Below the pieces are notes generated by a model. That model worked only from the letters and a program-made list of their open reading frames with translations. It was not told the DNA's origin and did not search any database. The position numbers and the translations under genes were made by a program. This document shows, in pieces, positions 1,119-59,828 of a stretch of DNA of 64,000 bases. How positions within the stretch are numbered: position 1 is the first letter of the stretch; each line of letters starts with the position of its first letter. Source of the DNA: Candidatus Moraniibacteriota bacterium (lineage in GTDB: Bacteria > Patescibacteriota > Minisyncoccia > Moranbacterales > UBA2206); assembly GCA_049303795.1 (NCBI GenBank), contig JBAQNM010000005.1, forward strand, positions 286,381 to 350,380, in the 5' to 3' direction.

Positions 1119-1122
1119 AATT

Positions 1123-1602
1123 TCAAAAATATAATGTTAGTGCCAAAACAATAAAACCCGAAACCATTGTTCCAAAAAGAAGAAGTGGGAGAGATTTTTT
1201 TGCAGGGATCCCAAAAACAAAAGCCGCTAATGCACCTGTCAAACCACCTATAAGCGGGATAGGAGTAGCCGCTAAAATAAAAATGGCCCACTCTCCATAT
1301 TTTTCCATCTTTTTATTAGCTTTTTTCCTTGTATGCTCAAAAAGCCAGTGAAAAAACTTTTCAAAAAAATAAAAATGTTTTGATAAAAATTTTGCTACCG
1401 GATCAAGAAGAAAAATAATAACTACCATAGCAAAAAAAGTTCCAGCCACTGAATAAAACCAGGCCCAAAAAGCTGAAAGTTTATACACTTTATAAGCTAA
1501 TGGTAAGGCCGCTCTAAGTTCTGTTACCGGAATTACCGCAATCAAGAAAGTAGCCAACTCCTTGGGAAAATTGCTAAATAGACTTACTATATACTCATGC
1601 AT
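1123..1602 (-). CDS. Small polytopic membrane protein, possibly COG2426 small multidrug-export-like
   Basis: 159 aa with 4 predicted TM segments and a conserved-looking PIPLIGGLTGAL motif; family assignment is tentative. Confidence 0.3.
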   Translation of the reverse strand: MHEYIVSLFSNFPKELATFLIAVIPVTELRAALPLAYKVYKLSAFWAWFYSVAGTFFAMVVIIFLLDPVAKFLSKHFYFFEKFFHWLFEHTRKKANKKMEKYGEWAIFILAATPIPLIGGLTGALAAFVFGIPAKKSLPLLLFGTMVSGFIVLALTLYF

Positions 1603-1614
1603 AAATTATTTATA

Positions 1615-2631
1615 TTATTTATCTCTTAAATATTCCGCGGCATCTTCTGGCGAAATAGTAATTATTTCAACTCCAGTTGAAATTTCAAATCCCGCCCAAA
1701 TAATTATCTTTGGCAATATTTCAATGTGCCAATGAAAATGCGGGTAATCCTTTCCATCGCAAGGCGAGGTGTGAATATAAAAATTAAAATCAGGATTATT
1801 AAGTTTTTCACTCAACCTTTTGACTGCCTCATGAAGTGCCTCTCCTGCTGAAATTTTTTCCTGCTCGCTAATTCTTTCAAAATAAGGCTTGTGTTTTTTT
1901 GGCAATAGCCACATTTCAAAATTTTCTCTTGCTGCAAAAGGACAGAAAAGCAAAAAATCATCATTTTCGAAAACTATTCTTTTCTTTTGCTCCAACTCCC
2001 ATTCAATCATTGAGCAATAAACACAATGTTTATTTTGTTTGTGATACTCTTCTGCACCGTCCAATTCACTTTTAACATAAGGCGAGATCACTGGAATAGC
2101 AACTAACTGTGAGTGTGGGTGAATTATGTGCGCTCCAGCTGTTTTTCCATGATTATGAAATATGTCAATGTAATTTACCGACTTTTTATTCATCAAATCA
2201 ATGTAGCGCGACTGATAGGCATCTATGATTTCAGCAACTGCCAATGGCTCCATTTTACCAATATGATTATAATGATCTTTTGTTACTACAACTTCATGAT
2301 AACCAACGCTATCCATCCAAAAATATGGCCCTTCCTCTTTATGGGTTATCCTTCCACCGCTTGGCCTTGAAAAAGCTGGGAATTTATTAGGAAAAACACG
2401 AAGAGACCAATCGCCATCAGCCGTATTATAGATCAAAACATCTTTTTCTTGTCCTGAGTTTTCAGGATCGCAAAACAGACACCCATCTAGATCATCTATA
2501 ATTAAATCTTCCTCTTTTTTAATAAACTCATCTGGGCGACGCGAACGGATCCTAGAAACAACCACCCAATCTCCGGTCACGAGATCTTGTCTTAATTCGC
2601 TAATTTTTTTATTTATTTTTTCTTCTTCCAC
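1615..2631 (-). CDS. galT: Galactose-1-phosphate uridylyltransferase-like HIT-family nucleotidyltransferase
   Basis: HPHSQ (HxHxQ) active-site motif, CxxC/CxxC zinc-site pairs and GalT-like two-half architecture; 338 aa. Confidence 0.55.
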   Translation of the reverse strand: MEEEKINKKISELRQDLVTGDWVVVSRIRSRRPDEFIKKEEDLIIDDLDGCLFCDPENSGQEKDVLIYNTADGDWSLRVFPNKFPAFSRPSGGRITHKEEGPYFWMDSVGYHEVVVTKDHYNHIGKMEPLAVAEIIDAYQSRYIDLMNKKSVNYIDIFHNHGKTAGAHIIHPHSQLVAIPVISPYVKSELDGAEEYHKQNKHCVYCSMIEWELEQKKRIVFENDDFLLFCPFAARENFEMWLLPKKHKPYFERISEQEKISAGEALHEAVKRLSEKLNNPDFNFYIHTSPCDGKDYPHFHWHIEILPKIIIWAGFEISTGVEIITISPEDAAEYLRDK

Positions 2632-2655
2632 TTTTTTATTTTATTTTATAAAATT

Positions 2656-3429
2656 TTATTTTTCGTTTTCAATTTCACTCATCTTCTTTTTTAGTTTATA
2701 TACACCTTTAATATTGTTCCACCAAACCTTAAATAATTCCCGAAGAGTTATAAGATAACCCTTAAACCCAACGAGGCTATATCCCATATCAATCCAAACC
2801 ACTGGAACTTCTACTATTTTATAGTTCAATTTTTTAGCTATCATTAAAATTTCGAAATCAATCCCCCAGCGGCAAACCTTAGTTCGAGGAAAAACTTCAT
2901 TAACTACGTCTTCTTTAAAAGCCTTGAAACCACACTGGGTGTCATAAATCCCTCGAAGCCCCATCATGAACTGAATCAAGAAGTTCCCAGCATCCCCCAA
3001 CAACTCTTTCCATCTCGGCTGATGCTTTTTTACATTAGAATTTTTTAAATCTCTTGAGCCAATTACGATATCCGCTTCACTGAACTTTGGAATAAAATTA
3101 TCTAGATTACTAATCGGGGTTGCCCCGTCCATATCGGTCCAAAGGCGCCACTCGCCATGTGCAGCCAAGAAACCCTTTCGAATACCATAGCCCTTACCTT
3201 TGTTTTCCTTTTCTTCTATTATCCAAAAATTTTTCTTATCTTTTATTTTTTCCTTAACCAACTCTGGCGTATTGTCAGTTGGTCCATCTAAATATATCAC
3301 CACCTCGTAACTCTTACCTATCTTCTCAAAATAGGCCTCAATAGAGTTTAAATGAGCCTCCATTTCTTTTTCCTTCACAGCCTCATTATAAGTTGGAATA
3401 ATCACTGATATAAAAGGTTTTTGCTCCAT
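2656..3429 (-). CDS. Family 2 glycosyltransferase (dolichol-phosphate mannose/glucose synthase-like)
   Basis: N-terminal ISVIIPTYNE GT2 motif with DxD-type region TDMDG. Confidence 0.6.
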   Translation of the reverse strand: MEQKPFISVIIPTYNEAVKEKEMEAHLNSIEAYFEKIGKSYEVVIYLDGPTDNTPELVKEKIKDKKNFWIIEEKENKGKGYGIRKGFLAAHGEWRLWTDMDGATPISNLDNFIPKFSEADIVIGSRDLKNSNVKKHQPRWKELLGDAGNFLIQFMMGLRGIYDTQCGFKAFKEDVVNEVFPRTKVCRWGIDFEILMIAKKLNYKIVEVPVVWIDMGYSLVGFKGYLITLRELFKVWWNNIKGVYKLKKKMSEIENEK

Positions 3430-46264: not shown

Positions 46265-47524
46265 TTATTTTAACAACTCCACATATTGCGCTTTTAATTC
46301 CTTGAATATTTTCATTCTTTCTTCGTCTAATGGTTGGCCTTTTGGCAAATCGAGCTTTAAAGGATTGACCGGAGTACCATTTAATTTTATCCCGTAATCA
46401 AGATGTGGCCCAGTAGACCAGCCAGTAGAACCAACATAGCCAATCACTTGGCCCTGATCCACTCTCACTCCTGATTTAATCCCTTTAGCAAAACTACTCA
46501 GATGTCCATAGTGCGAAGTGTATCCATTGTCATGACTAAGTCGAACCATATTGCCCCAGCCACCTTCCCAGCCAGCGCTAACTAGCGTTCCGCGCGCAGA
46601 AGCAACCACTGGCGTGCCAGAAGGAGCAGCGTAATCAATTTGATAGTGGGCAGAGATTTTCTTGGTAATCGGATGCATTCTTGCGCCAGTGAAACCTGAT
46701 GAAATATGACGATAACTAAGCGGGGCCTTCAGAAATTGTCTTTCCAATACTCGCCCTTCATCATCATAGTACCCGCCAGACCCATCATTATCAAAATAAT
46801 AGGCGTAAACACTCCGTCCAACATTAACAAATTTTGCTGCTAAAATTTTTCCGTCCGGCGCTTTTTCGCCAGTTAAACTTCTTTTTTCATAAACCACAAC
46901 AAATTCATCATCCTTTTGAATTTCTGTTGTGAAATCAACATCGAAAGAAAAAATATCTCCGACTTCCAAAACGCTCACTTCGGAAAGGCCGGATTCCATA
47001 GCGTCAACGTAGAAAAAATTATCAATTTTACCTCGTGCGATTTCCTGCGAAACGGAATAAGCAATTTTTTCTTCACGAGCAATAAAACCGCCCCCTTGCC
47101 TTTCAACAACAATTTTATGTTCATTACTCCTGTCGTATTCCATTTTTTTCAAAGTCCCATCACCCTTTTCAAAATAGAAACGCAAGTTTTGTCCAATTTT
47201 TATATTAGTAAAATCGTACACATCCTTTGTTGCCAAAAGCAGTAAGACTATTTCATTAGCATCTAATTTTCCCTGCAAGCCAAAAATTTCTGCCGGGATA
47301 TCCCCATCGATGACTGTATAATCGACAACATCAAAATCGTCTTTTTTGATTTGAGTGGCTTCTGATTGATTTTGTTTAATTGGAATCTCTAAGATTTTCC
47401 GTTTCCCTATAGCACCTTTAATCAAAACAAAACATTTCCATACAATAAAAAAGGAAAGTGCTATTAAAAAAACGGTTAATACTTTTCTTCTAAGACTAAT
47501 TTTATTCTCTTTATTATTTAACAA
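46265..47524 (-). CDS. M23 family (LytM-type) metallopeptidase, membrane anchored
   Basis: HYGHLSSF...GSTGWSTGPHLDYG M23 catalytic motifs; N-terminal TM. Likely TTG start at 47522-47524. Confidence 0.75.
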   Translation of the reverse strand: MLNNKENKISLRRKVLTVFLIALSFFIVWKCFVLIKGAIGKRKILEIPIKQNQSEATQIKKDDFDVVDYTVIDGDIPAEIFGLQGKLDANEIVLLLLATKDVYDFTNIKIGQNLRFYFEKGDGTLKKMEYDRSNEHKIVVERQGGGFIAREEKIAYSVSQEIARGKIDNFFYVDAMESGLSEVSVLEVGDIFSFDVDFTTEIQKDDEFVVVYEKRSLTGEKAPDGKILAAKFVNVGRSVYAYYFDNDGSGGYYDDEGRVLERQFLKAPLSYRHISSGFTGARMHPITKKISAHYQIDYAAPSGTPVVASARGTLVSAGWEGGWGNMVRLSHDNGYTSHYGHLSSFAKGIKSGVRVDQGQVIGYVGSTGWSTGPHLDYGIKLNGTPVNPLKLDLPKGQPLDEERMKIFKELKAQYVELLK

Positions 47525-48183: not shown

Positions 48184-49137
48184 CTACCGACAAGCTGCCA
48201 AAGAAAAATAGCTTGTCGTTTTGACTATATTTCCACCTAAAATATTAGCTGAATTGGAATGATCAATAACTTCAAACTTGGCCTTTCCATTTTTTTGTGT
48301 TGCCGAAAGAAAAGTTGCAATCGATGTCGGAGAATCAAGGTTATCATTGTTAAGCTGAAAAAGCTTATCATAATCAAAACTTTGCAAAACCTTCAGTGTT
48401 TCATTATCTTTACTTTCTGCCTCATTACTATTTAGATAATGAGAAAAATCAACAGAAACAACTAACATATTTTTTTCATTTTCGAGATATTTAGAAAGTT
48501 CGTCATTCAGTTTTTCAATTTCTGCCCGAGTATTTTTGGCACTAAGAATTATCGGAACAATTTTAACATTAGGGAGATAGTACGCAATCAATGGAAAGAG
48601 TCCTGTTGTTGAATGTTCTTTTTGCATAATATAATTTTCAATTTGCATCAAGCCTTTTTCTTTCAAATCAGAAATTATTTCTTCATTAGGCATAACATTT
48701 CCAAAGGGTGTTTCCCAAATAGCATTGCTTGTTAATATTTTTTCACCTTTTTCCCAATGATTTGGTCCAACAACAAAAACTGTTTCGATTTTTTGAGATG
48801 CTAATTTCGCAAATAATCCCGCTGGCATAAATCCTGCCAAAAGGTGATGTGGAACAACCGCTGTCACAATCTGGCAATCAGAAAAAGTTTTCGGATTATT
48901 TTTTAGCCAAATCAAGGAATCATAAAAAGTTTTCTCATCATAAAACTGCACTTTCAAAGGCTCATTTTTAACAACGTCCACTTGCCTATCATCAGCGAGA
49001 AAAAATTTTTGAGAAAAAATAAAAGAATCAAATTTTTTAATGGAAACCAACAAAATCAATAAACACAATAAAATGATTAAGCCTATAAAAAGTGATATTT
49101 TTATTTTTTTCTGAGAGTTATATTTTTTAATTACCAT
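48184..49137 (-). CDS. MEMO1-family (AmmeMemoRadiSam protein B-like) protein, N-terminally membrane anchored
   Basis: AVVPHH, VGPNH, ETPFG, QKEHSTTGLFPLIAYYL, KIVPI and VSVDFSHY align with the conserved MEMO1 blocks (VPHAGY, LGPSH, TPLG, EHSLEvqlPFL, kivPi, SsDlSHY). Overlaps the upstream A2M gene by 11 nt. Confidence 0.55.
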   Translation of the reverse strand: MVIKKYNSQKKIKISLFIGLIILLCLLILLVSIKKFDSFIFSQKFFLADDRQVDVVKNEPLKVQFYDEKTFYDSLIWLKNNPKTFSDCQIVTAVVPHHLLAGFMPAGLFAKLASQKIETVFVVGPNHWEKGEKILTSNAIWETPFGNVMPNEEIISDLKEKGLMQIENYIMQKEHSTTGLFPLIAYYLPNVKIVPIILSAKNTRAEIEKLNDELSKYLENEKNMLVVSVDFSHYLNSNEAESKDNETLKVLQSFDYDKLFQLNNDNLDSPTSIATFLSATQKNGKAKFEVIDHSNSANILGGNIVKTTSYFSLAACR

Positions 49138-52100
49138 TTTTCATTTTGAATTTTTTGAATGCAAAATATCCAAAAACTCCAATCGGAATTAACAGCAAAA
49201 ATATTATCAGCAAGACTTTTAAGGCGTCTCTTCTATCGCTTAACATATTTTGGACTGCTTTTGATAGTTGCCTGAACGAACCATTATCAATTGTAACGAC
49301 TTGCGCTGCTGATCTTCCATAAACTTCCGGTGAATACATCAGCTCTGCTCTGGCTGGTGGAACTGAAAAAGTTCCTTCACTGATAACCTTAGCCTCATAC
49401 GCATAAGTGTTCTCCCCTCCTTTAATATAATAAGTCGTCAAAATCATCCCATTTTTAGTAGTTTCTTGATTATAATGATAGTAGTTGAAATTAGAGTCCT
49501 TACCATCATCAAACTGCTGATTTTTCAAGTTCTTATTAATTGGCACCATTCCCGAAGGAAGCTCATCTTGAATAACAGCATACTCTCTTTCTCCTGTTAA
49601 TCCCGAAACGGTCAACACAACTCGTACGGTATCACCAACATGCAAATTCTGACCAGGATTGGTTAGATTTTCATATTCTCGTCTGATACTAAGTCCGGCA
49701 TTTACGGCTGGCGCTTTTTTATCTGTATGAAACTCCTCAATTACTAATGTAGAATAAACTTCACCATCTCCAACCTTCTTTACAGTGAGTACTGAACCAT
49801 TTGTTTGAATTTTTGAAACCGGAATTGAAATTTGATCTAACTGACTAAACTTTGAAATTATCCCTTTTTGAATTTCCGTCCCATCCAAGATCACTGAGTA
49901 ATTATATTGAGGATTGAGACTAGCATTTGATTTAGAATAATCAACCACCGCTCGAATAATATTAGCTGTCGCGAAAGTATTAGACCAATAATTACTCCTT
50001 CTGTGTTTTGTTAGAAACCTAATTCCTCTAACAGCCAAATCACGATTCTGATCAGCCATAACAATTGCTCGCACAGCTAAAGCAGTTGAAGCATCATCTG
50101 AACCAAAATAATATTTGACTCCGGTTGGCCAGAACAAACTATCCCCTTCGGATTTCGCCATTGCCAATAATTCACTGAGTCCATTGTTTTTTGGATCGGT
50201 GTAGCCATTGCGAATATTTGCCATCACTGTTAATGCCAGTATATCCGAAGTTATATTATTGAAATTATCAAGCTTAGTTTTTCCCTTTTCGCTATTTGAA
50301 TCCAGAATTGATAGAGCGTAAACTTTAGCAACTTTTTCATCACGCTCAGCCACTAAGCGATCGCGTCTTTTTTTGAAGCCATAATCATAATCATCAAAAT
50401 CCTTTTCCAAGAAATTTTTTGTTCTATCTAGCATCGCCTCGTCAATCACAAATCCTAAATTCTTAGCTTCAACCAGATATTCAACTACATAAGCGGTAAT
50501 AAATGGATCTGAGTTGCTTCCATACCAGCCCCAACCACCATCATCTCCTTGAAGGCTAACTAAGCGCTCAATGCCTTTATTGATAATGTCATCGATATTT
50601 TTATCAGCAATTGAGCTGCTAAATATGTCCGCGTTTTTCTTAGCGATAACTGCTGGCACAAAACGACTTGTTGTTTGCTCCACACAACCATAGGGATATT
50701 TAACCAAATATTTCATTGCTTCAGGCAATGTTCCGATTAATGTTGGTGCGATTGAGAAATTGACTGTTGTTTTTTCAATATCAATATCTTTTGATAGCTT
50801 CAGATTATAAATTTTATTCTCATCATCTCCAACATCAATAGTACTCTCCCAAAATCCAAATTTCTTAATTGGAATTTCTTTGGTTATGATATCAGAAAGA
50901 TTTTTATCATCGGATATGGCTGAAAAAGTTATTTTAGCAGCTTCATTCTCCGCTTGTGGATCAACTTTCCAAAAAACCTGTTTTTCAGCATTGGCCTCAA
51001 TTCCTATTTCTTGTTCTGGAGAATCTACTTTCGCTCCATCCATTTTCAAACTGGCAGTAAAATCCAATTTTTTATCCGTGAAATTATGCACAAGCGCTGA
51101 TAGGGTTATCGAGTCATCCACCCTTAAAATATTAGGTAATATTGGACGAACAATAACGTCTTTTGAAACTAGAATCTCATTCTGCCCTTCGCCAACTCGA
51201 GTATCTTTTGTAGCTGAAATGCCAGCGACAACCCATGTAGTTAGATTATCTGGTAACTTAAAAGTTAATTGTGCCGTGCCATTGGCATTAGTTTTCACAC
51301 TTGGATTCCAGTAGGCCGTATCTTTAAAAATTGATCTGCCACCTCCATCGCCTCCACCACCACCTTTTTCCGCTCCCTCAGAAATAACTCCCATCAAAGA
51401 ATGATTCTTATTGGTACCATCATATCTTTCAAACCAAAAACGTTTAAATATTCCCGTGGCTTTATTATCTGCCAATTCAAAAATAGCCTTATCAACAACC
51501 CAAACCGCTGTTTCGGCTGAAACGGGTTTACCTGACATAGTTGAAGTTTTCACAGTTACTGTTACTTCCTCACCTGGATTATATTTATTTTTATCCAAAG
51601 CAAAGGAAACATTTATCCTTTTTCCCTCCGCTGAAACTTTCAATTTAACACTATCCGCATCTAGATTTTCATCGGAAAAAGAAGAAACATCCGCAAAAAT
51701 ATTAGGAACATCAGTATCAACTAACGGCATGTCTATTTTTACTGAATTTCCCTTTAAGCGAACCACTTGATAACGGTTAACCCTACCTCTGTCAATAGAA
51801 AGCAACACATCTCGATCTGGTATATTAGAGGAAATTGTTAGTTTAGCTGTCTCACCTGGATCATATTGGCTTTTATCGCTTTGAATTTTCAACCCACTAT
51901 TTTCATTTCCACCCGACCAATAAAATCCACTCTTATCAGAAACCCAGGCATAGAAATTCTTCTTAATAATGTTTCCTTTATCATCCGTTCCCACAACTTC
52001 AATATCATATGAACCTTCTTTGGTCGCTTTAAATTGAATACTTGCTTTACCCTGGGCATCAGTTTTGACAGTAATAGGCTCCAAATCTTCATTTTCTTCA

Positions 52101-53911
52101 ACATATTTAGGATATTTTTTTCCAGGAACGATCACTTCTTTCCAAGTCGTTCGCTTAATCTTTCCCTTCAATTCAATATTGGAAATTTTTGACTGATTAT
52201 GAGGAATCAAAATCAGGCCAAGAGAAACTTGATCGCCAACGCTATAGCCATAATAATAATTAGCATCGTTGCGTAAAATTGAATATTTTCCGGCATTCAC
52301 CAAGACATTCTTGCTATCAAAAACAGGGATACCAGATTCATCGGAAAATTCCGTTTCAATTGTAAAAATACGTTCTCCAAATTTTTCTCCATCTTGAGAA
52401 GTTAAATCTCCTCCTATTTTAACCTCAACCAATCCATTTTCATCCAAAATCGCCTCTCCTTCGCTAATTGGATTTCCTCCATACCAATTCCTATAACGAT
52501 AATTATCAACATTTTTATAATTCTCATAATCAGAATAATAATCATAATAATAGAAATCTGAGGAATAAATTTTATAGGAAACTGATTTATTGGCTAGCGG
52601 CTGACCAGAAAAATAATTACCAGCAATTTTAAACGTCAGCTCATCACCAGAAATTATTTCATCCGTATTTGAATCTAAACTAACCTCATACTCCGGCTTT
52701 TGATAATATTCCACATTAAAACTGGTTGAATCGCTATACCAACTAAATTCCTCCTCTCCAGCCTCTTTATTAACAATTTTTACGCCCAAATAATACATCC
52801 CCGTTTTAGCATCGCTTGGCAAAATAAAATCTCCTGAAATAGTTCCATCGTCAGAAATTAAATACTTTTGAGAAAAAACTTTCTCTGCATTATCATCTCC
52901 TAGGTAATCACCATTTGAAACATCAATCTGGACTTCTCCTTTTGGAATACTATAACGGACATCGTCCTCATTGCGAATAATAGCTTTAAAGTTAATCTTA
53001 TCTCCTGGTTGATATATTGGCCGGTCAGTAAAAACAAAATAATAATGATTAATCGTTTTTGGAGCAAAAACAGCATAAGGATAATAATTAACATACCGCA
53101 TATTTATAGGAATAATTGCCAATTCGCCATCTTTTTCCAGAAAAGCCACATCGGCCTCTTCTGCAATTTTTGTTTTGGCAATTCCTTCATCATTTGTCAC
53201 TGCTGAATCCACAACACTCTTTTTATTCAAAAAACTAGCAACTTCAATTTGAACTCCGGAAAGCTTCTTCTTATTATTAAAATCCTGCGCCCAGAAGATC
53301 ATCTCATCATTTCCATTTTTGACAGTCGCCCCAAAACTAGATCTAACAACAAAAGCTTTTCGATCTGTTCCATCAGCCGCAACTCGTATCAGCCAAATTC
53401 CAGAGGATGCATCTGGAATAGTTATTCGAATACTTCCTCCATTCATATTTTGATCAAAAGAAGATGCTAAATACATATCTTTTGTATCAACGTCTGCATT
53501 TAACTGATTGCCGTCTTTGTTGTGCAAAAGATAATTAATCAAATCATCTTTGCTTGCTTTATAAATTTCAATTTTTGCAGTATCACTTTTATAATCAAAA
53601 ATACTAGCATTTACAATAGGATCTTCATTTGTAGTTTGAGAGATAATCCCCCCACTTCCATACCCACCTTTATCATTGGAAATGCTAATATTTGTTTCTC
53701 GTATTTTTTTTTCCACTCCTAAAACATTATTGTCTTCTTTGGCAATCTCTTTTTTCTGAGAAGTTTCCATAGACAAATGCCTCGAGGTTCTTGCATTCTT
53801 TCCAACATTCTTAATACTACTAAATTGGTTTTTATTTATAGAAATAAAAAAACCGCTAAAAATTAAAGCAGCCCCTAGAAAAAACCCGATCGCAATTTTC
53901 TTTTTGTCCAT
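49127..53911 (-). CDS. Alpha-2-macroglobulin-family thioester-containing giant protein (1594 aa) with N-terminal signal anchor and C-terminal TM
   Basis: YPYGCVEQTTSR thioester-type motif (C-x-E-Q; codons near 50677-50691), downstream LQGDDGGWGWYG alpha/alpha-toroid (TED-like) repeat, size and beta-rich repeat-domain composition typical of bacterial A2Ms. The C-terminal hydrophobic helix plus KKFKMKNGN tail suggests a second anchor. Confidence 0.6.
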   Translation of the reverse strand: MDKKKIAIGFFLGAALIFSGFFISINKNQFSSIKNVGKNARTSRHLSMETSQKKEIAKEDNNVLGVEKKIRETNISISNDKGGYGSGGIISQTTNEDPIVNASIFDYKSDTAKIEIYKASKDDLINYLLHNKDGNQLNADVDTKDMYLASSFDQNMNGGSIRITIPDASSGIWLIRVAADGTDRKAFVVRSSFGATVKNGNDEMIFWAQDFNNKKKLSGVQIEVASFLNKKSVVDSAVTNDEGIAKTKIAEEADVAFLEKDGELAIIPINMRYVNYYPYAVFAPKTINHYYFVFTDRPIYQPGDKINFKAIIRNEDDVRYSIPKGEVQIDVSNGDYLGDDNAEKVFSQKYLISDDGTISGDFILPSDAKTGMYYLGVKIVNKEAGEEEFSWYSDSTSFNVEYYQKPEYEVSLDSNTDEIISGDELTFKIAGNYFSGQPLANKSVSYKIYSSDFYYYDYYSDYENYKNVDNYRYRNWYGGNPISEGEAILDENGLVEVKIGGDLTSQDGEKFGERIFTIETEFSDESGIPVFDSKNVLVNAGKYSILRNDANYYYGYSVGDQVSLGLILIPHNQSKISNIELKGKIKRTTWKEVIVPGKKYPKYVEENEDLEPITVKTDAQGKASIQFKATKEGSYDIEVVGTDDKGNIIKKNFYAWVSDKSGFYWSGGNENSGLKIQSDKSQYDPGETAKLTISSNIPDRDVLLSIDRGRVNRYQVVRLKGNSVKIDMPLVDTDVPNIFADVSSFSDENLDADSVKLKVSAEGKRINVSFALDKNKYNPGEEVTVTVKTSTMSGKPVSAETAVWVVDKAIFELADNKATGIFKRFWFERYDGTNKNHSLMGVISEGAEKGGGGGDGGGRSIFKDTAYWNPSVKTNANGTAQLTFKLPDNLTTWVVAGISATKDTRVGEGQNEILVSKDVIVRPILPNILRVDDSITLSALVHNFTDKKLDFTASLKMDGAKVDSPEQEIGIEANAEKQVFWKVDPQAENEAAKITFSAISDDKNLSDIITKEIPIKKFGFWESTIDVGDDENKIYNLKLSKDIDIEKTTVNFSIAPTLIGTLPEAMKYLVKYPYGCVEQTTSRFVPAVIAKKNADIFSSSIADKNIDDIINKGIERLVSLQGDDGGWGWYGSNSDPFITAYVVEYLVEAKNLGFVIDEAMLDRTKNFLEKDFDDYDYGFKKRRDRLVAERDEKVAKVYALSILDSNSEKGKTKLDNFNNITSDILALTVMANIRNGYTDPKNNGLSELLAMAKSEGDSLFWPTGVKYYFGSDDASTALAVRAIVMADQNRDLAVRGIRFLTKHRRSNYWSNTFATANIIRAVVDYSKSNASLNPQYNYSVILDGTEIQKGIISKFSQLDQISIPVSKIQTNGSVLTVKKVGDGEVYSTLVIEEFHTDKKAPAVNAGLSIRREYENLTNPGQNLHVGDTVRVVLTVSGLTGEREYAVIQDELPSGMVPINKNLKNQQFDDGKDSNFNYYHYNQETTKNGMILTTYYIKGGENTYAYEAKVISEGTFSVPPARAELMYSPEVYGRSAAQVVTIDNGSFRQLSKAVQNMLSDRRDALKVLLIIFLLLIPIGVFGYFAFKKFKMKNGN

Positions 53912-54288
53912 AATTATTATTTATTTTTTTAATTTTTTCTCACTTATTTAACTTACTAAAATAATACCACATTTTTAGCAAATAACAACTCGCAAATAAA
54001 ATTCAATTCGATTTCAAAAATTACTTTTTTGGGAGTTTTTCTTTTTTTTATTTTCGTAGTAAAATGATGATGTGTAATTACTAACTAACAAAAATACTTT
54101 CAATTCTATGAAACTTTTCTTAAAATTTTTCTTAATAATATTCACCTTATTCATTGCTCTTTTCTATGCAATCCAAAATAATTATCTCGATAAGCTATTC
54201 TAATTCTTAATTAATAAAACAGTTTTGAAAAAGTAGAGAATAAAATAGGCCAGCTGAAGATAGCTGCTTTTTATTTAAACTGCGCTGC

Positions 54289-54298
54289 TTGTGTTATA
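54289..54298 (+). promoter_or_regulatory. Extended -10 promoter element (TGTTATAAT) for the GT-C operon
   Basis: gtgttataat about 38 nt upstream of ATG 54336; preceded by a small hairpin cagctgaagatagctg plus T-run (54251-54275). Confidence 0.35.
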
Positions 54299-54335
54299 AT
54301 AAAAAATACTAATAATCTGTTTTATAATGAAATAA

Positions 54336-56066
54336 ATGAGTACTATATTTTTATTTAGAGGAAAAAAATCGAACTTTCTTAAAAAATTAGTTCAAATCAG
54401 AAATTCAAAAGTACTCGCTCCTTATTTTAATTATATTGAAAAAAAATGGAACAGTCTCAATAATTTTAAAAAAGGCTCGCTGTTGATTATGCTAACCTGG
54501 GGTGGCTTCTTTGCCTTCATTTTTCCGAGAATGCTTTTTCGAAATGAATTGGGCATCTATGCAGGTTGGGTCAATGTTTGGGGTGATTGGTCAGCTCACT
54601 TCGCCTACGCTATGCCTTTCGCCTATCGCCCAATTGGAGAATGGTTTTCTTCCTTTCCCCTTTTGATCAATCATCCTTTTAGTTATTCCTTTTTAGCGGA
54701 TGGTATCACAGGGCTAATGATTCGTTTTGGTTTTTCAGAAATAACTGCTTTTTGGTTCTCCTCATTAATATTCACCCTTTTAATGCTCTGGATAATTTAT
54801 AAGTTTTTTTATTTCTATTTCAAATCAGTCAAATCTTCTTTTCTGGCAATCACACTATTTTTAATGGGTGGCGGCTGGGGTTTTGTTTTCTTCCTAGAAG
54901 ATCTTAAGAAAGGTCTGGCAAATTGGAGTTTTTTTCCCAGAGAATATACTCATATCGAAGTTGAAGGAATTCGCTGGATTAATGTCATTACCTCTGAAAT
55001 TATCCCGCAAAGAAGTTTCGCGCTAGGCTTAGCCCTGACCCTTTTTATTTTATTTCAATGGAGTCTTTGGAAAAAAATAAAATTCAAAAACGTCTCCCCT
55101 ATTAAAATTTTTGGCCTAGGCATAGTTTCTGGTTTCATGCCAATCGTTCATGCGCATTCTCTTTTTGCTCTTTTTATTTGCGGAGTCTCTTTCTTTTTAT
55201 ACGACTTACGCCATTGGAAAAAATGGATTCTGTTTGCACTTGGATCTGCCAGTTCATTCGCTCTGGTTTATTTCTTTTTTCGCTTTGGAAGTAACTCAGA
55301 AAGTTTTTTCAAATGGCATTTGGGCTGGCTCGCAAATGAAAAACCTTTTAATGGCAACATCTTAATGTTTTGGCTTTGGAATTGGGGACTTTTTATTCCT
55401 CTTTCTCTTTTGTCAATTTGGAAAACAAGATTCTATAAAGAGCCTTTATTTTTATCTGGTGTCACACTATTTATCCTATCAAACTTATTTCTTTTCCAGC
55501 CTTGGCCATGGGATAATTCTAAAATTCTAACCTATGCCTATCTTTTTTTCTGTCTACCAATTATCCTTTGGTTTAGTAAATTAATCAAAGAAAGAAAATC
55601 CGTTTCTGTTTTTATTTTTTCAATCCTATTTATTAGTCTAATTTTTTCAGGCGGATTAGATTTATATCGCCTAACTAAAACAGACAAGCTGCAATTTCAA
55701 ATGTGGAGCAATGATGATTTAAAATTAGTAGCTGATTTTAAAGCCATGTCTAAGCCCGGCGATATTGTTTTGACTTCCGACCGGCACAATCACCCCATAA
55801 CCACTCACACAGGCGCTCAAATTCTAATGGGATACCGCGGCTGGTTATGGACATATGGCATGGAATATGGAACAGTAGAAAAAGATGTTTTAGCAATGTA
55901 CCAAGGTGGCAAGCAAGCTCAAACACTCTTTGAAAAATACAACGTAAAATATGCTGTAATCGGTCTTTCTGAAAAGAAAAATTTTAACATAAATGAAAAA
56001 TTTTTTCTGGATAATTATCCGCTGATAATAAAATCAAGTGAATATAAAATTTTTAAACTTCAATAA
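54336..56066 (+). CDS. Polytopic GT-C-type membrane protein (possible short STT3/AglB-like or other GT-C glycosyltransferase)
   Basis: About 13 TM helices followed by a C-terminal soluble domain of about 130 aa containing ILMGYRGWLWTYGMEYG (WWDYG-like) near 55838-55862; assignment is speculative. Confidence 0.45.
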   Translation: MSTIFLFRGKKSNFLKKLVQIRNSKVLAPYFNYIEKKWNSLNNFKKGSLLIMLTWGGFFAFIFPRMLFRNELGIYAGWVNVWGDWSAHFAYAMPFAYRPIGEWFSSFPLLINHPFSYSFLADGITGLMIRFGFSEITAFWFSSLIFTLLMLWIIYKFFYFYFKSVKSSFLAITLFLMGGGWGFVFFLEDLKKGLANWSFFPREYTHIEVEGIRWINVITSEIIPQRSFALGLALTLFILFQWSLWKKIKFKNVSPIKIFGLGIVSGFMPIVHAHSLFALFICGVSFFLYDLRHWKKWILFALGSASSFALVYFFFRFGSNSESFFKWHLGWLANEKPFNGNILMFWLWNWGLFIPLSLLSIWKTRFYKEPLFLSGVTLFILSNLFLFQPWPWDNSKILTYAYLFFCLPIILWFSKLIKERKSVSVFIFSILFISLIFSGGLDLYRLTKTDKLQFQMWSNDDLKLVADFKAMSKPGDIVLTSDRHNHPITTHTGAQILMGYRGWLWTYGMEYGTVEKDVLAMYQGGKQAQTLFEKYNVKYAVIGLSEKKNFNINEKFFLDNYPLIIKSSEYKIFKLQ

Positions 56067-56083
56067 CTCTATTTTTAAAAAAT

Positions 56084-57466
56084 ATGAAAATTAAAAAAAC
56101 TTGGTATTTCCCACTAGTATTATTACTACTTGGACTAATTACTCACTTTTTTTTGTTAGGACAACCAAGAGAAGTAGTTTTTGATGAAGTTCATTTTGGC
56201 GGATTTGTCAGTAAATATTTCACAGGACAATACTTCTTTGACATTCATCCACCGCTGGGAAAATTAATAATCGCAACTGGAGCAAAAATAGGGGGCTATT
56301 CTGAATATATCGAAACAAATGGCCCGTTTGATTTTTCTAAAATCGGAAATCAATACAACAATCTGCCAGTTTTTTGGTTTCGCTTTTTTCCAGCCCTAGC
56401 TGGATCGCTTTTACCATTGATCGTTTTTCTTTTTCTCAGGGTAATTAAAATTAATGAGGGAGTCGCTTTTTTTGCCGGCATTCTAATTATCTTGGAAAAC
56501 TCTCTACTCACTCAATCTCGCTTTATTCTGCTTGATATTTTCATTTTATTTTTCGGATTTTTAGGGTTATACTTATTTTTTCTTGCCCGAGAAAAAAAAT
56601 ACCAACCACTGTTAGTTTTTCTAGCAGGAATTTCTCTTGCCGCCAGCTTCTCAGTCAAATGGACTGGCCTCACCTATCTAGCCATCGCATTAGGAATACT
56701 CGCCTGGGATTTTTTTGAAGAGCTCATAAGAAGAAAGACCCTACTTAGACTTTTCGGACTACTAAAAACAAAAGCGCATGAAACGTCAAATATATCTTTT
56801 GGAAAAATCTTTCTGTCTGTTTTTTCTTTGTTCTTTGCTGCAGCAATCGTATATATTAGCTGTTTCTACATTCACTTCGCACTTCTGGTAAAATTCACTC
56901 CCAACGATGTTCCAAATGGCAAACTACCTTTCACGGAAAAATTCATAGAATTGAATGAACAAATGTACTCTTCCAATTCTGGTCTTGTTGCTAAACATCC
57001 TGATGAATCCACTCCTGCTCAATGGATAACCCTCAAAAAACCAATACATTATTGGTTAGAATCAAAAAATAACCAAACATCTCAGGTAATTTTTTTTGGT
57101 AATCCTTTGGTTTGGCTTCTTGGAATTTTAGGCGTTTTATATTTCCCCGCTGTTTGGAAAAAAATAAAACTAAAAACAGAAATAAAATTATTTCTGCTCG
57201 TTGGTTTTTGGATTAATTTTATTCCTTTCCTATTTATTAAAAGACTGCTTTTTCTCTATCATTATCTAAGCGCATTAGTTTTTTCAATTATTCTTTTTTC
57301 TGTTCTGTTTTTCGTTTTGGAAGAAAAAAAGAGGATTTTCATTCCGCTTATATCTACACTAGCCTGTCTTATTTTGTTTAGCTTTCTGGTTTTTTCCAAC
57401 TTCACATATGGATTCCCCACCTCAAATAGTTGGCAAAACTCAATTACTCACTTTTTTATGTATTAA
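56084..57466 (+). CDS. PMT-family (GT39) dolichyl/polyprenyl-phosphate-mannose protein mannosyltransferase-like
   Basis: FDEVHFGGF and HPPLGK motifs in the first loop, as in the PMT/GT39 family; polytopic, 460 aa. Confidence 0.7.
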   Translation: MKIKKTWYFPLVLLLLGLITHFFLLGQPREVVFDEVHFGGFVSKYFTGQYFFDIHPPLGKLIIATGAKIGGYSEYIETNGPFDFSKIGNQYNNLPVFWFRFFPALAGSLLPLIVFLFLRVIKINEGVAFFAGILIILENSLLTQSRFILLDIFILFFGFLGLYLFFLAREKKYQPLLVFLAGISLAASFSVKWTGLTYLAIALGILAWDFFEELIRRKTLLRLFGLLKTKAHETSNISFGKIFLSVFSLFFAAAIVYISCFYIHFALLVKFTPNDVPNGKLPFTEKFIELNEQMYSSNSGLVAKHPDESTPAQWITLKKPIHYWLESKNNQTSQVIFFGNPLVWLLGILGVLYFPAVWKKIKLKTEIKLFLLVGFWINFIPFLFIKRLLFLYHYLSALVFSIILFSVLFFVLEEKKRIFIPLISTLACLILFSFLVFSNFTYGFPTSNSWQNSITHFFMY

Positions 57467-58308: not shown

Positions 58309-58722
58309 TTAACGCTGCTCGTAATATCCTTCATGAGCGGCATCTCTTCCATCTCGATAACCCTCCTGCTGCTGACGATAAATTTCTTGGCGGCGGATTC
58401 TTTCCCGTTCTTCCTGATAGGCACGATTGTATGCATCGCTATAAGGAGAACAGGGAGGCGTGCAGCGATATGCCGGTTGCGATGGCGTAACATATATCAC
58501 TCTGGGCGGCGGATCGATAATTCTATCCACCACATCATAGAGCAATAAACCACCGGCAACACCAATGATGGTGTTTGCAACTCTGCTGCCGTGGTGACTA
58601 CTGTGATGACTTCTGCCACGATACTCATTGTGTCCACCACGATGCCCACGTTCAGCAAACGCACTGTTTGCCAACAAAATACCAACCACCAAAATGCAAA
58701 GAACAGTCAATAATCTCTTCAT
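58309..58722 (-). CDS. Hypothetical secreted His/Arg/Tyr-rich protein
   Basis: Start at MKRLLTVLCILVVG (signal peptide) preceded by a GGAGG RBS; the mature part is rich in H, R, Y, Q and P. GC is elevated. Confidence 0.5.
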   Translation of the reverse strand: MKRLLTVLCILVVGILLANSAFAERGHRGGHNEYRGRSHHSSHHGSRVANTIIGVAGGLLLYDVVDRIIDPPPRVIYVTPSQPAYRCTPPCSPYSDAYNRAYQEERERIRRQEIYRQQQEGYRDGRDAAHEGYYEQR

Positions 58723-58885
58723 TTCTACTCCTCCTGATTTATGTTTAAATTCATGTTTTACTTTCTTTACTGACTTTGTATTATACACCTAAACGCATAA
58801 AAAGTCAAATGTATTTGCCTTTTTTAGGCTCCAATAAAGCAAAATAATCACAGATAATACGCTATTTTGCCTAAACTAAACACAA

Positions 58886-59219: not shown

Positions 59220-59828
59220 ATGGTTTTTGAATTTAGTAACAACCTATCTGGAGAAACAAACAAGGCTATTCAAAGAGCCAGAGAAGAATTAAGCGTTCCA
59301 GGGAATGAAAAGGATAGACTGCTAAGAGAAAAAGAGGAAATGGTCATGGAACAGATAAAACAAGAAGCAGAAACACTTAATGGACCTAGTAATATTTTTT
59401 CAAAAATGACAGAAAAGGCGCAGAAAATATATAAAGCATTCTGCTTTACGGTTCTGTTATCAACCTCTTTTGCGGCTTTTACGGAAGATGCAGAAGCCGG
59501 CAGAAGACATCATGGAGGTAATTATAGTGATTTTCTCAAAGAGGCAGTTGGAGATGTAATTGGAAATATGCCCCGCGATATGCAAAGACAACAAAGAAGA
59601 ATGGAGAAACAAGAAGACCGACAACAAAGAAGAATGGAAAAGCAGGAAGATCGATGGCAAAAACAAGAAGCAGCAAAAAATTATCAATACGAACAACAAA
59701 GACAAGAAGCACTTTCAAAATATCGATCAGCCATCTCTCAAGCAAAAAGCGACGCAGAACTGCAAATTGCAAGAGAAAAATATGATCTAGAGGTTCAAGC
59801 GATAAATTCAGCTGAACGAGGAGAATAA
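59220..59828 (+). CDS. Hypothetical secreted/anchored protein with tandem QQRRMEKQEDR repeat
   Basis: Internal hydrophobic segment AFCFTVLLSTSFAAFT, then a charged region with a 2 x 33-bp tandem DNA repeat (59589-59654). Confidence 0.4.
   Translation: MVFEFSNNLSGETNKAIQRAREELSVPGNEKDRLLREKEEMVMEQIKQEAETLNGPSNIFSKMTEKAQKIYKAFCFTVLLSTSFAAFTEDAEAGRRHHGGNYSDFLKEAVGDVIGNMPRDMQRQQRRMEKQEDRQQRRMEKQEDRWQKQEAAKNYQYEQQRQEALSKYRSAISQAKSDAELQIAREKYDLEVQAINSAERGE
59589..59654 (+). repeat. Tandem direct repeat, 2 x 33 bp, in frame within a CDS
   Basis: caacaaagaagaatggagaaacaagaagaccga followed by caacaaagaagaatggaaaagcaggaagatcga. Confidence 0.5.

What the first reader, a model, noticed from the sequence alone, without database searches (positions are those of the whole stretch)
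53912..57466. Protein-glycosylation-like locus: GT-C membrane protein with WWDYG-like LWTYG motif plus PMT/GT39 homolog
Two adjacent plus-strand polytopic membrane proteins sit downstream of a TGnTATAAT extended -10.
- The first (576 aa) has about 13 TMs and a C-terminal soluble domain containing GYRGWLWTYGMEYG, reminiscent of the WWDYG motif of STT3/AglB/PglB oligosaccharyltransferases. Its size is similar to short archaeal AglB.
- The second carries the DEVHFG/HPPLGK loop of protein O-mannosyltransferases (GT39).
- The window also encodes a GT2 Dpm-like synthase (2656-3429).
A combined N-/O-type protein glycosylation toolkit in a CPR-like bacterium would be notable.
Basis: partly seen in the sequence, partly recalled or inferred. 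Interest (0 to 1): 0.6.

Follow-up and report, generated by a model that had tools for sequence, protein, structure and literature searches.

The report
Uncharacterised GT-C glycosyltransferase paired with PMT
Next to a bacterial protein O-mannosyltransferase gene sits a membrane enzyme from a large, unnamed glycosyltransferase family that is not an N-glycosylation enzyme by sequence but has a similar fold, and is repeatedly found beside the mannosyltransferase and a lipid-sugar donor synthase in many bacterial phyla.

Summary
Two co-directional membrane-protein genes lie at 54336-56066 (576 aa, ORF-A) and 56084-57466 (460 aa, ORF-B), and the quoted motifs are present. ORF-B is a clear MIR-less bacterial PMT/GT39. 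ORF-A matches no Pfam, NCBIfam or PDB sequence. Its AlphaFold model (pLDDT 94.9) is a GT-C class-A fold: 11 TM helices plus a 130-aa extracytoplasmic C-terminal "dome". The dome alone retrieves DPY19, short archaeal AglB C-terminal domains and STT3.

OST membership fails. None of 52 members hits Pfam STT3, and a PglB profile comparison gives nothing. The position of the WWDYG Asp is Thr or Ser in 231 of 247 relatives. No lipid-PP-oligosaccharide genes are nearby.

ORF-A belongs to a large unnamed family (6,503 cluster representatives; relatives in 407 species genomes) with its own invariant motifs: WGD84WxxH88, PQR226, H272xH274, WD393N394xK396 and GWLW[T/S][Y/H]G. A PMT gene is immediately adjacent in 29 of 80 loci, in four different arrangements. 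A GtrB/DPMS-like GT2 lies within three genes in 14.

Best reading: a new GT-C family that uses a polyprenyl-phosphate-hexose donor in the same surface-glycosylation pathway as PMT. The acceptor is unknown.

The parts
54292..54300 (+). Extended -10-like TGTTATAAT, 36 nt upstream of the ORF-A start codon
   Evidence: Read directly. Pattern search: 5 matches in the window against 3.67 expected. The position is plausible but not statistically distinctive.
54336..56066 (+). ORF-A, 576 aa: GT-C class-A fold membrane glycosyltransferase of an unnamed family (11 TM plus C-terminal dome)
   Evidence: ORF. No Pfam, NCBIfam or PDB sequence hit. AF2 pLDDT 94.9. Foldseek hits to DPY19, STT3, PglB, AftA and ArnT. 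Family size.
54534..54737 (+). First long external loop (residues 67-134): a beta-hairpin and two helices (79-97, 120-130). Carries the invariant WGD84WxxH88 (nt 54579-54599) and Y117
   Evidence: AF2 secondary structure. D84 and H88 kept in 246/246. Analogous to the catalytic D128/R132 on the first ECL helix of AftA (PMC10265970).
55005..55013 (+). P224-Q225-R226 motif at the external end of TM4; R226 is invariant and is a candidate lipid-phosphate ligand
   Evidence: R226 248/248, Q225 240/248. The role is inferred by analogy with R415 of AftA and R375 of PglB.
55149..55157 (+). H272-A-H274 (HxH) motif in the external turn between TM5 and TM6; candidate metal or phosphate site
   Evidence: H272 244/249, H274 235/249. 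ArnT has an H265-E-H267 motif that contacts its divalent metal (PMC7801869). The analogy is inferred.
55500..55523 (+). PWxWD393N394xK396 motif in the external turn between TM9 and TM10
   Evidence: D393 245/249, N394 245/249, K396 249/249.
55674..56063 (+). C-terminal extracytoplasmic alpha/beta 'dome' domain (residues 447-576). Contains HNH (484-486, nt 55785-55793) and GWLWTYG (502-508, nt 55839-55859)
   Evidence: Domain-only AF2 pLDDT 91.5. Foldseek: DPY19 E 6e-4 with TMq 0.61-0.65; AglB-S2 C-terminal domain 3vu0 E 5e-3 with TMq 0.58; STT3 TMq 0.53-0.63. Pfam DUF6798 (a 61-aa model) matches about 45 aa in the C-terminal domain of some relatives. C-terminal PA14 fusions in relatives.
56084..57466 (+). 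ORF-B, 460 aa: bacterial-type (MIR-less) protein O-mannosyltransferase, GT39; D34-E35 catalytic motif at nt 56183-56188
   Evidence: Pfam PMT 9.7e-49 and PMT_4TMC 1.2e-31. PDB 6p25 Pmt1 1.1e-40. Motif positions.
2656..3429 (-). GT2, 257 aa: candidate polyprenyl-phosphate-hexose synthase (donor supply), about 51 kb from ORF-A in this genome
   Evidence: Pfam Glycos_transf_2. Best PDB hits are Pyrococcus DPMS 5mlz at 3.9e-12 and ArnC. Same family as the GT2 directly flanking ORF-A homologs elsewhere, E 1e-24 to 1e-14.

Best explanation
ORF-A is the catalytic glycosyltransferase of a large, so far unnamed family within the GT-C class-A superfamily. It has the minimal GT-C architecture: an 11-helix core, a long first external loop with two helices carrying an invariant Asp-x3-His, and a C-terminal dome that caps the active site. 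Proposed mechanism (inferred): a DPMS/GtrB-like GT2 loads a hexose, most simply mannose, onto polyprenyl phosphate at the cytoplasmic face. The lipid-linked sugar is flipped. ORF-A binds its phosphate through invariant R226 and/or K396, possibly helped by a metal held by H272/H274/D393. It then transfers the sugar to an extracytoplasmic acceptor, with D84 (paired with H88) as catalytic base and the dome (HNH and GWLW[T/S][Y/H]G motifs) shaping the acceptor site. It works in the same pathway as the adjacent PMT and probably draws on the same lipid-sugar pool, acting on secreted or surface proteins or their O-glycans. Shown: the fold, the family, motif conservation, topology logic and gene linkage. 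Inferred: donor identity, residue roles and the acceptor.
For: Fold: full-length model pLDDT 94.9; Foldseek probability 1.0 to DPY19, STT3, PglB, AglB, AftA (best TMq 0.56) and ArnT. Dome: specific hits to DPY19, AglB-S and STT3. Sequence: weak GT-C clan hits only (DUF6798 in 13 of 52 members; DUF6541, DUF2298, TMEM260-like, Dpy19, PMT_2); hhalign to the PMT profile 84%, E 7.7e-6. Active-site-like invariants all lie in predicted external loops: D84, H88, R226, H272, H274, D393, N394, K396. K/R-rich loops fall on the opposite face. PA14 carbohydrate-binding domains are fused after the dome in at least 5 cluster representatives. Linkage: PMT is immediately adjacent in 29 of 80 loci and within 3 genes in 35, in four orientation classes (19 divergent, 6 + 3 co-directional in both orders, 1 convergent), across Patescibacteria classes, Desulfobacterales, Bdellovibrionota, Acidobacteriota and gammaproteobacterial MAGs. 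A GT2 most similar to GtrB, ArnC and DPMS lies within 3 genes in 14 loci (12 directly downstream), together with PMT in 10. The window's own GT2 belongs to that family. Literature frame: synthase + flippase + GT-C three-component systems (PMC11127046); GT-C core definition (PMC10265970); dome conservation (PMC10154233).
Against: There is no experimental datum for any member. The donor sugar and the acceptor are not determined. No flippase was found next to the family. In this genome the GT2 is 51 kb away. About 55% of loci show no PMT within three genes. Many loci instead sit in a conserved CPR housekeeping block (Lon, PEGA protein, TIM, UvrD, FemAB), so part of the synteny reflects shared ancestry. 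Many MAG taxon labels are unreliable. Residue roles are assigned without coordinates, so no distances were measured. The one apparent A-PMT fusion protein is probably an artefact.
Confidence: 0.6

Rival explanations
1. ORF-A modifies a non-protein acceptor, such as a cell-wall glycopolymer, peptidoglycan-linked glycan or glycolipid, in the manner of GtrII, ArnT, AftA or YfhO-type GT-Cs. Its proximity to PMT would then only reflect sharing of the lipid-sugar donor.
For: The highest full-length TM-score is to AftA, a glycan arabinosyltransferase. PA14 carbohydrate-binding domains are fused to several members, like the CBMs of Emb, AftD and GT136 (PMC11127046). FemAB (15 loci) and LytR-CpsA-Psr (10 loci) recur nearby.
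Against: The best E-values, both for the full length and for the dome alone, go to protein-modifying GT-Cs (DPY19, STT3, AglB). The strongest and most rearrangement-resistant partner is PMT, a protein glycosyltransferase. FemAB and LCP lie 2-3 genes away inside a conserved CPR housekeeping block.
Confidence: 0.25
2. ORF-A is a highly divergent minimal oligosaccharyltransferase (STT3/AglB/PglB type) that transfers a glycan from a lipid-diphosphate carrier to Asn, with GWLWTYG as a degenerate WWDYG.
For: STT3, PglB and AglB are among the top Foldseek hits. The dome matches the AglB-S and STT3 C-terminal domains. Its size is like that of AglB-S. A conserved W-rich motif is followed by G. Conserved His and Asp residues could bind the metal that OSTs need.
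Against: No hit to Pfam STT3 in 52 members. hhalign to a PglB profile gives 5% for the full length and 0.3% for the dome. The position of the WWDYG Asp is T or S in 231 of 247. EL1 has a single invariant D, not DxD. The partner GT2 makes lipid-monophosphate sugars. No initiating phosphoglycosyltransferase, Wzx/PglK flippase or LLO glycosyltransferases were found in the window context or among recurrent neighbours. The dome is shared by non-OST GT-Cs (PMC10154233).
Confidence: 0.07
3. ORF-A is a non-catalytic GT-C-fold partner of PMT, acting as a scaffold or substrate-presenting subunit comparable to the second protomer of eukaryotic PMT dimers.
For: Tight adjacency with PMT. Eukaryotic PMTs act as obligate dimers (PMC12705809 abstract).
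Against: Near-absolute conservation of polar or charged residues typical of GT-C active sites (D84, H88, R226, K396 and others) across about 249 diverse members. More than half of the loci have no PMT nearby. The family is often adjacent to its own donor synthase.
Confidence: 0.05

Closest known systems
DPY19 tryptophan C-mannosyltransferase (GT98; CeDPY19, PDB 7zlh/7zli/7zlg)
   Same: Best Foldseek E-value both for the whole protein (1e-7) and for the C-terminal dome alone (6e-4, TMq 0.61-0.65). GT-C class-A core plus an alpha5beta5 dome covering the active site. A single catalytic carboxylate on EL1. Uses a lipid-monophosphate-mannose donor, the same pool as PMT (PMC10154233).
   Different: 10-12% identity. 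Pfam Dpy19 is hit by only 1 of 52 members, at E 0.01. 11 rather than 13 TMs. Asp/His pair instead of Glu71. ORF-A has conserved His residues that suggest a metal site, whereas DPY19 is metal-independent. Bacterial rather than eukaryotic. No evidence for a WxxW acceptor.
STT3 / AglB / PglB oligosaccharyltransferases (GT66), especially short archaeal AglB-S
   Same: GT-C class-A fold (E 1e-6 to 1e-4, TMq 0.44-0.51). The dome resembles the isolated AglB-S C-terminal globular domains (3vu0 TMq 0.58 / TMt 0.50; 3vgp) and the STT3 luminal domain. Similar overall size. An aromatic-rich conserved motif in the dome.
   Different: No STT3 Pfam match. No significant profile similarity. The WWDYG Asp is replaced by Thr or Ser. 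No DxD. No DK/MI motif recognisable by sequence. Genomic partners point to monosaccharide-phosphate donors, not lipid-PP-oligosaccharides.
AftA (GT85) and ArnT (GT83)
   Same: The highest TM-score is to AftA (0.56, rmsd 6.9 A). Same minimal plan: an 11-TM core, a catalytic Asp with an i+4 partner on the first external helix (D128/R132 against D84/H88), and a C-terminal alpha/beta domain. Extra N-terminal TMs in some members resemble AftA TM1-2 (PMC10265970). The HxH motif recalls ArnT H265-E-H267 at the metal site (PMC7801869).
   Different: 8-10% identity. No Pfam or profile relationship detected. The acceptors of AftA (galactan) and ArnT (lipid A) have no counterpart shown here.
PMT / GT39 (the neighbouring ORF-B and its family)
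   Same: The only family with a detectable profile-profile signal to ORF-A (hhalign 84%, E 7.7e-6, over TM2-TM6). Same superfamily. Adjacent and probably co-transcribed.
   Different: Foldseek similarity to Pmt1/Pmt2/Pmt4 is weak (E 0.5-2). ORF-A lacks the DE motif and PMT_4TMC and has a C-terminal dome that PMT lacks. It is not a PMT paralog in any practical sense.
Three-component extracytoplasmic glycosylation systems (GtrA/GtrB/Gtr*, ArnC/ArnEF/ArnT, Ppm1/Pmt, GT136 systems)
   Same: A GT2 polyprenyl-phosphate-sugar synthase encoded beside one or more GT-C transferases. This is the logic described in PMC11127046.
   Different: Two different GT-Cs (PMT and ORF-A) share the locus. No flippase gene was identified next to it. 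In this window the synthase is distant.

Membership tests
STT3/AglB/PglB oligosaccharyltransferase (GT66) | Sequence match to the STT3 family model (Pfam PF02516) | tested here: not met
   ORF-A has 0 Pfam families at E<=1. None of 52 family members hits PF02516 at E<=0.1. Genuine PglBs carry PF02516.
STT3/AglB/PglB oligosaccharyltransferase (GT66) | WWD[YWF]G motif with a conserved Asp that binds the +2 Ser/Thr of the sequon | tested here: not met
   The motif is G-[W/H]-[LIV]-W-[T/S]-[Y/H]-G. The position of the Asp is T in 116 and S in 115 of 247. Whether this motif or the HNH motif is positionally equivalent is unresolved.
STT3/AglB/PglB oligosaccharyltransferase (GT66) | Profile-level homology to PglB | tested here: not met
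   hhalign of A1 against the Campylobacter PglB profile gives probability 5%, and 0.3% for the dome alone. Caveat: the PglB profile is narrow (Neff about 2).
STT3/AglB/PglB oligosaccharyltransferase (GT66) | C-terminal globular domain of the AglB/STT3 core type | tested here: met
   Domain model against PDB: 3vu0 E 5e-3, TMq 0.58; 3vgp; STT3 chains TMq 0.53-0.63, probability 0.94-1.0. This dome is also present in DPY19, Emb and AftD (PMC10154233), so it does not define OSTs.
STT3/AglB/PglB oligosaccharyltransferase (GT66) | Genomic association with lipid-PP-oligosaccharide assembly (initiating phosphoglycosyltransferase, flippase, cytoplasmic GTs) | tested here: not met
   Recurrent neighbours are PMT, a DPMS/GtrB-like GT2, TIM, UvrD, Lon, a PEGA protein, FemAB and LCP. 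The window context has none.
GT-C class-A glycosyltransferase superfamily | Multi-TM GT-C core fold | tested here: met
   Foldseek probability 1.0 to 25 GT-C chains from 6 families. Model pLDDT 94.9, pTM 0.92.
GT-C class-A glycosyltransferase superfamily | Conserved acidic catalytic residue on the first long external loop, which is formed by two helices | tested here: met
   D84 is invariant in 246/246 and lies in helix 79-97 of EL1; a second helix spans 120-130. Its catalytic role is inferred, not shown.
GT-C class-A glycosyltransferase superfamily | Lipid-phosphate-linked sugar donor | not testable with these tools
   Only indirect evidence: a GtrB/ArnC/DPMS-like GT2 lies next to the family in 14 of 80 loci.
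PMT / GT39 (ORF-B) | PMT and PMT_4TMC domains above the curated thresholds | tested here: met
   166.6 bits (cut-off 22.7) and 110.2 bits (cut-off 32.4). PDB Pmt1 1.1e-40.
PMT / GT39 (ORF-B) | Asp-Glu catalytic motif in loop 1 | tested here: met
   F33-D34-E35-V-H-F-G lies directly after TM1. D77/E78 of Pmt1 is the reference (PMC7801869).
PMT / GT39 (ORF-B) | Luminal MIR domain (eukaryotic PMTs) | tested here: not met
   No MIR hit, and only 14 residues separate the two Pfam domains. This is the known MIR-less bacterial type. It scores below the cut-off of the NCBIfam actinobacterial Pmt equivalog (63.9 against 800).
DPY19 C-mannosyltransferase (GT98) | Match to Pfam Dpy19 (PF10034) | tested here: not met
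   1 of 52 members at E 0.0098; ORF-A itself has none. The similarity is structural only.
Three-component (synthase / flippase / GT-C) glycosylation system | Polyprenyl-phosphate-sugar synthase encoded with the GT-C | tested here: inconclusive
   Met in 14 of 80 related loci. In the window the GT2 of the same family is 51 kb away.
Three-component (synthase / flippase / GT-C) glycosylation system | Dedicated flippase (GtrA, SMR/ArnEF or MATE type) in the locus | tested here: not met
   No recurrent small hydrophobic neighbour. A PF06695 small membrane protein sits two genes from the window's GT2, but its role is unknown.

The most novel reading that the evidence does not exclude
ORF-A founds a bacterial third branch of the DPY19/STT3 lineage of protein-modifying GT-C enzymes. 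In this reading it is a minimal (11-TM plus dome) protein glycosyltransferase that uses the same polyprenyl-phosphate-mannose pool as PMT but makes a different protein-sugar linkage, or extends O-mannose. Together with PMT it would form a two-enzyme surface-protein glycosylation module that is retained even in the reduced genomes of CPR bacteria.
Probability: 0.25. Interest if true: 0.8.

Novelty: new variant of a known kind. Interest (0 to 1): 0.55.

Why it matters
GT-C enzymes carry out the extracytoplasmic steps of protein and cell-envelope glycosylation, and each characterised family has defined a new CAZy family and a new chemistry (for example GT136 in 2024). This family is large: 6,503 clusters at 50% identity, with relatives found in 407 species genomes. 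It has no dedicated Pfam model, no name and no literature. It has a clear set of testable active-site residues and a reproducible genomic partnership with PMT and a lipid-sugar synthase. Its closest structural relatives are the enzymes that N- and C-glycosylate proteins in eukaryotes and archaea. That bears on how protein-glycosylating GT-Cs evolved, and on what CPR/Patescibacteria, which live attached to host cells, display on their surface. The locus offers a compact system (synthase, PMT, ORF-A) for heterologous reconstitution.

Tried and rejected
2. No model coordinates were accessible, so active-site distances and a WWDYG overlay could not be computed.
3. Profile against a single sequence (PglB, ORF-B) had no power.
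4. The PglB homolog search returned only close Campylobacter sequences, which gave a narrow profile. The negative hhalign result is therefore weaker than it looks.
5. The A1 profile against PDB sequences gave only a chance triosephosphate-isomerase hit on 'YVVIGxSE'.
6. The apparent A+PMT fusion protein P0214 was rejected as Rosetta-stone evidence. It is a singleton on one contig, its dome is truncated mid-domain, about 50 aa of low-complexity sequence follow, then a normal PMT-type N-terminus, and the topology is inconsistent. It is probably a frameshift or a merged gene call.
7. The permissive hhalign to PMT did not place D84 against the DE motif with any confidence.
8. The extended -10 is not statistically enriched, and the sigma-70 scan is not above shuffles.
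9. The search for a GtrA-like flippase beside the family was negative.
10. An origin-of-replication reading of the strand and skew switch at 54 kb has no support from DnaA boxes.
11. Literature searches for DUF6798, DUF2298, DUF6541, CPR O-mannosyltransferase and new GT-C families found no description of this family.

Full report
**Observation.** The two plus-strand ORFs are real: ORF-A at 54336-56066 (576 aa) and ORF-B at 56084-57466 (460 aa). The quoted peptides are present: GYRGWLWTYGMEYG at ORF-A residues 499-512, and FDEVHFG and HPPLGK at ORF-B residues 33-39 and 55-60. TGTTATAAT lies at 54292-54300, 36 nt before the ATG. The pattern occurs 5 times in the window against 3.7 expected, and the promoter scan of the region is not above shuffles, so it is plausible but not evidence. 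The genes are separated by 17 A/T-rich bases with no terminator, so co-transcription is likely. The organism is a Candidatus Moraniibacteriota (CPR/Patescibacteria) MAG: ORF-A is 100% identical to an NCBI 'hypothetical protein' from that phylum.

**ORF-B.** It is an unambiguous protein O-mannosyltransferase of the short bacterial type. Pfam PMT scores 9.7e-49 and PMT_4TMC 1.2e-31, both far above the curated cut-offs. The best solved relatives are yeast Pmt1 and Pmt2 and fungal Pmt4. The loop-1 Asp-Glu motif is present (D34-E35). There is no room for a MIR domain.

**ORF-A, sequence level.** It matches nothing in Pfam or NCBIfam or in PDB sequences, either alone or as a 52-sequence profile. When 52 diverse relatives are scanned one by one, the only recurring hits are weak and all fall in the GT-C clan: DUF6798 in 13 members, which is a 61-aa model that covers about 45 residues of the C-terminal domain, then DUF6541, DUF2298, TMEM260-like, Dpy19 and PMT_2. 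STT3 is never hit. A profile-profile comparison with the PMT genes that neighbour the family gives 84% probability (E 7.7e-6) over TM2-TM6. A Campylobacter PglB profile gives 5%. The PglB sequence was recovered from the PDB alignment, and the profile built from it is narrow.

**ORF-A, structure.** With the family alignment, AlphaFold2 gives pLDDT 94.9 and pTM 0.92. Foldseek against the PDB returns only GT-C class-A enzymes at high probability:
- CeDPY19, E 1e-7.
- Yeast and human STT3 and PglB, E 1e-6 to 1e-5.
- AftA, with the best TM-score (0.56).
- AglB and ArnT.
- PMTs are weak.

All share 8-14% identity. Hydropathy, the positive-inside rule and the model's helices give N-in, 11 TM helices and C-out. 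The first external loop (67-134) has a hairpin and two helices. This is the 'GT-C core' defined for AftA: 11 TMs, a catalytic Asp on the first long external loop, and an alpha/beta C-terminal domain over the active site (PMC10265970). Some relatives add two N-terminal TMs, as AftA does.

**The C-terminal domain and the WWDYG question.** I modelled residues 447-576 alone (pLDDT 91.5) and searched the PDB. The specific hits (probability 0.94-1.0) were these:
- The DPY19 luminal domain (E 6e-4, TMq 0.61-0.65).
- The isolated C-terminal globular domains of short archaeal AglB (3vu0, E 5e-3, TMq 0.58 / TMt 0.50; 3vgp).
- Eukaryotic STT3 (TMq 0.53-0.63).
- PglB, more weakly.

Unrelated alpha/beta proteins follow only at probability below 0.3. 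However, the DPY19 paper describes this alpha5beta5 'luminal dome' as conserved also in Emb and AftD (PMC10154233), so it is a GT-C class-A feature, not an OST signature.

The motif itself fails the OST test. Across about 247 relatives it reads G-[W/H]-[LIV]-W-[T/S]-[Y/H]-G, and the position of the WWDYG Asp is Thr (116) or Ser (115). By secondary-structure order (helix, strand, motif, strand), the conserved HNH (484-486) could equally be the positional counterpart of WWDYG. A sequence-based dome-to-dome alignment is not significant (0.3%), so this stays unresolved without a superposition.

**The family.**
- An exhaustive profile search finds 6,503 cluster representatives at E<=1e-3 and 2,705 at E<=1e-30.
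- A scan of one genome per species finds relatives in 407 genomes. These include many Patescibacteria classes, Desulfobacterales, Bdellovibrionota, Cyanobacteria, Armatimonadota, Dormibacterota, Acidobacteriota and gammaproteobacterial MAGs. Some taxon labels are doubtful.
- Nearly all members are unnamed.
- Invariant or near-invariant residues among 249 members: D84 and H88 (246/246), R226 (248/248), Q225, H272 (244/249), H274 (235/249), D393 and N394 (245/249), K396 (249/249) and E546.
- All of these lie in predicted external loops or in the dome, while the K/R-rich loops lie on the other face.
- At least five cluster representatives carry a PA14 carbohydrate-binding domain after the dome. 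This independently supports an extracytoplasmic C-terminus and contact with glycans.

**Genomic linkage.** I called ORFs in 80 non-redundant loci and clustered the neighbours.
- A PMT gene is immediately adjacent in 29 loci and within three genes in 35. It occurs in four arrangements: 19 divergent, 6 upstream co-directional, 3 downstream co-directional and 1 convergent. These span several phyla, which argues for selection on proximity rather than inherited order.
- A roughly 240-aa GT2 whose best solved relatives are GtrB, ArnC and DPMS is within three genes in 14 loci (12 directly downstream). It occurs together with PMT in 10 loci, forming a recurring PMT-[A]-GT2 triad.
- The window's GT2 (2656-3429) is of the same family (E 1e-24 to 1e-14) and resembles DPMS and ArnC. 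Here the GT2-TIM block that flanks [A] in other CPR genomes lies 51 kb away.
- Other recurrent neighbours are TIM, UvrD, Lon, FemAB, LCP, a PEGA/SH3 protein and a Cys-rich, Pro/Thr/Ser-rich anchored protein. They largely belong to conserved CPR blocks. The two surface proteins have S/T-rich linkers and are conceivable substrates, which is speculative.
- No lipid-PP-oligosaccharide assembly genes and no flippase were found.
- An apparent A-PMT fusion (P0214) is most likely a frameshift or a merged gene call.

**Mechanism (inferred).** This follows the established logic of synthase/flippase/GT-C systems (PMC11127046) and GT-C catalysis (PMC10265970, PMC10154233, PMC7801869).
1. The GT2 makes polyprenyl-P-hexose.
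2. After flipping, ORF-A binds the phosphate with R226 and/or K396. H272/H274/D393 possibly hold a divalent metal, as H265-E-H267 does in ArnT.
3. D84, paired with H88 one helical turn away, acts as base, like D128/R132 in AftA.
4. The dome closes over the site and contributes acceptor contacts.

Sharing a donor with PMT explains the gene triad. The acceptor is unknown. Similarity to DPY19 and STT3 and the PMT partnership favour a protein or glycoprotein. The PA14 fusions and the AftA similarity keep a glycan acceptor open.

**Comparison and verdict.** ORF-A works like a GT-C class-A transferase and is a member of that superfamily by fold and by its catalytic-loop feature. It is not a member of GT66/STT3, because four defining features were tested and not met, and only the non-specific dome fold was met. 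It is also not a member of GT98, GT39, GT83 or GT85 by sequence. I found no publication describing the family.

I therefore rate it a new variant (a new family) of a known kind, with moderate-to-good interest (0.55). It has clear testable residues, a compact conserved gene module, and relevance to CPR surface biology and to the evolution of protein-glycosylating GT-Cs. There are no experimental data, and the substrate remains unresolved.

Noticed in passing
window 53912-54335: The 424-bp AT-rich divergent intergenic region holds a 31-aa hydrophobic small ORF (54110-54205, MKLFLKFFLIIFTLFIALFYAIQNNYLDKLF) and a hairpin plus T-run (54251-54266) just upstream of the -10-like element. This could be a small membrane peptide gene with its own terminator, or a regulatory leader.
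   Followed up: no
window 1-64000, switch near 53.9-54.3 kb: Nearly all genes up to 53911 are on the minus strand and most after 54336 are on the plus strand. GC skew is -0.2 to -0.3 before the switch and about 0 after it. That pattern resembles an origin, but there is no DnaA-box cluster and no dnaA gene nearby.
   Followed up: partly
window 351-3429 (-): A block of TIM, a PF06695 'small multidrug export' membrane protein (159 aa), a GalT/HIT-like nucleotidyl-transferase (338 aa) and the DPMS-like GT2. This may be the sugar-activation and donor arm of the pathway. The small membrane protein is an untested flippase candidate.
   Followed up: partly
window 49127-53911 (-): A 1594-aa bacterial alpha-2-macroglobulin-like protein (MG2, A2M, bait region, TED and bMG10 domains) with hydrophobic N- and C-terminal segments, divergently transcribed from ORF-A. 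Directly downstream of it on the minus strand, overlapping its stop, lies a Memo-like gene (48184-49137), with an M23 peptidase gene further on (46265-47524).
   Followed up: no
window 58309-58788 (-) and 59220-59828 (+): Two small divergent proteins share a hydrophobic segment followed by a His/Arg/Gly-rich stretch (ERGHRGGHNEYRGRSHHSSHHG; GRRHHGGNYSDF) and Q/R/E-rich repeats. Neither has a Pfam hit.
   Followed up: no
L003, L020, L022-L024, L040, L042, L045, L054 (gene upstream of PMT); L025, L027, L030 and others (gene upstream of [A]): Two families of secreted or anchored proteins recur next to the PMT/[A] pair. One is a roughly 289-aa Cys-repeat protein with a long Pro/Thr/Ser linker and a C-terminal TM (9 loci). 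The other is a roughly 307-aa PEGA + SH3_3 protein with a Ser/Thr-rich linker (23 loci). Both are possible glycosylation substrates.
   Followed up: partly
P0214 (ENA metagenome protein, 1135 aa): An apparent fusion of an ORF-A-family module and a PMT_2/PMT module. It looks like a frameshift or a merged gene call rather than a true fusion.
   Followed up: yes
L005/L076, L079: A 412-aa polytopic membrane protein with no Pfam hit is directly adjacent to the ORF-A homolog in 3 loci, overlapping its start in L005. It may be another unclassified GT-C-like partner.
   Followed up: no
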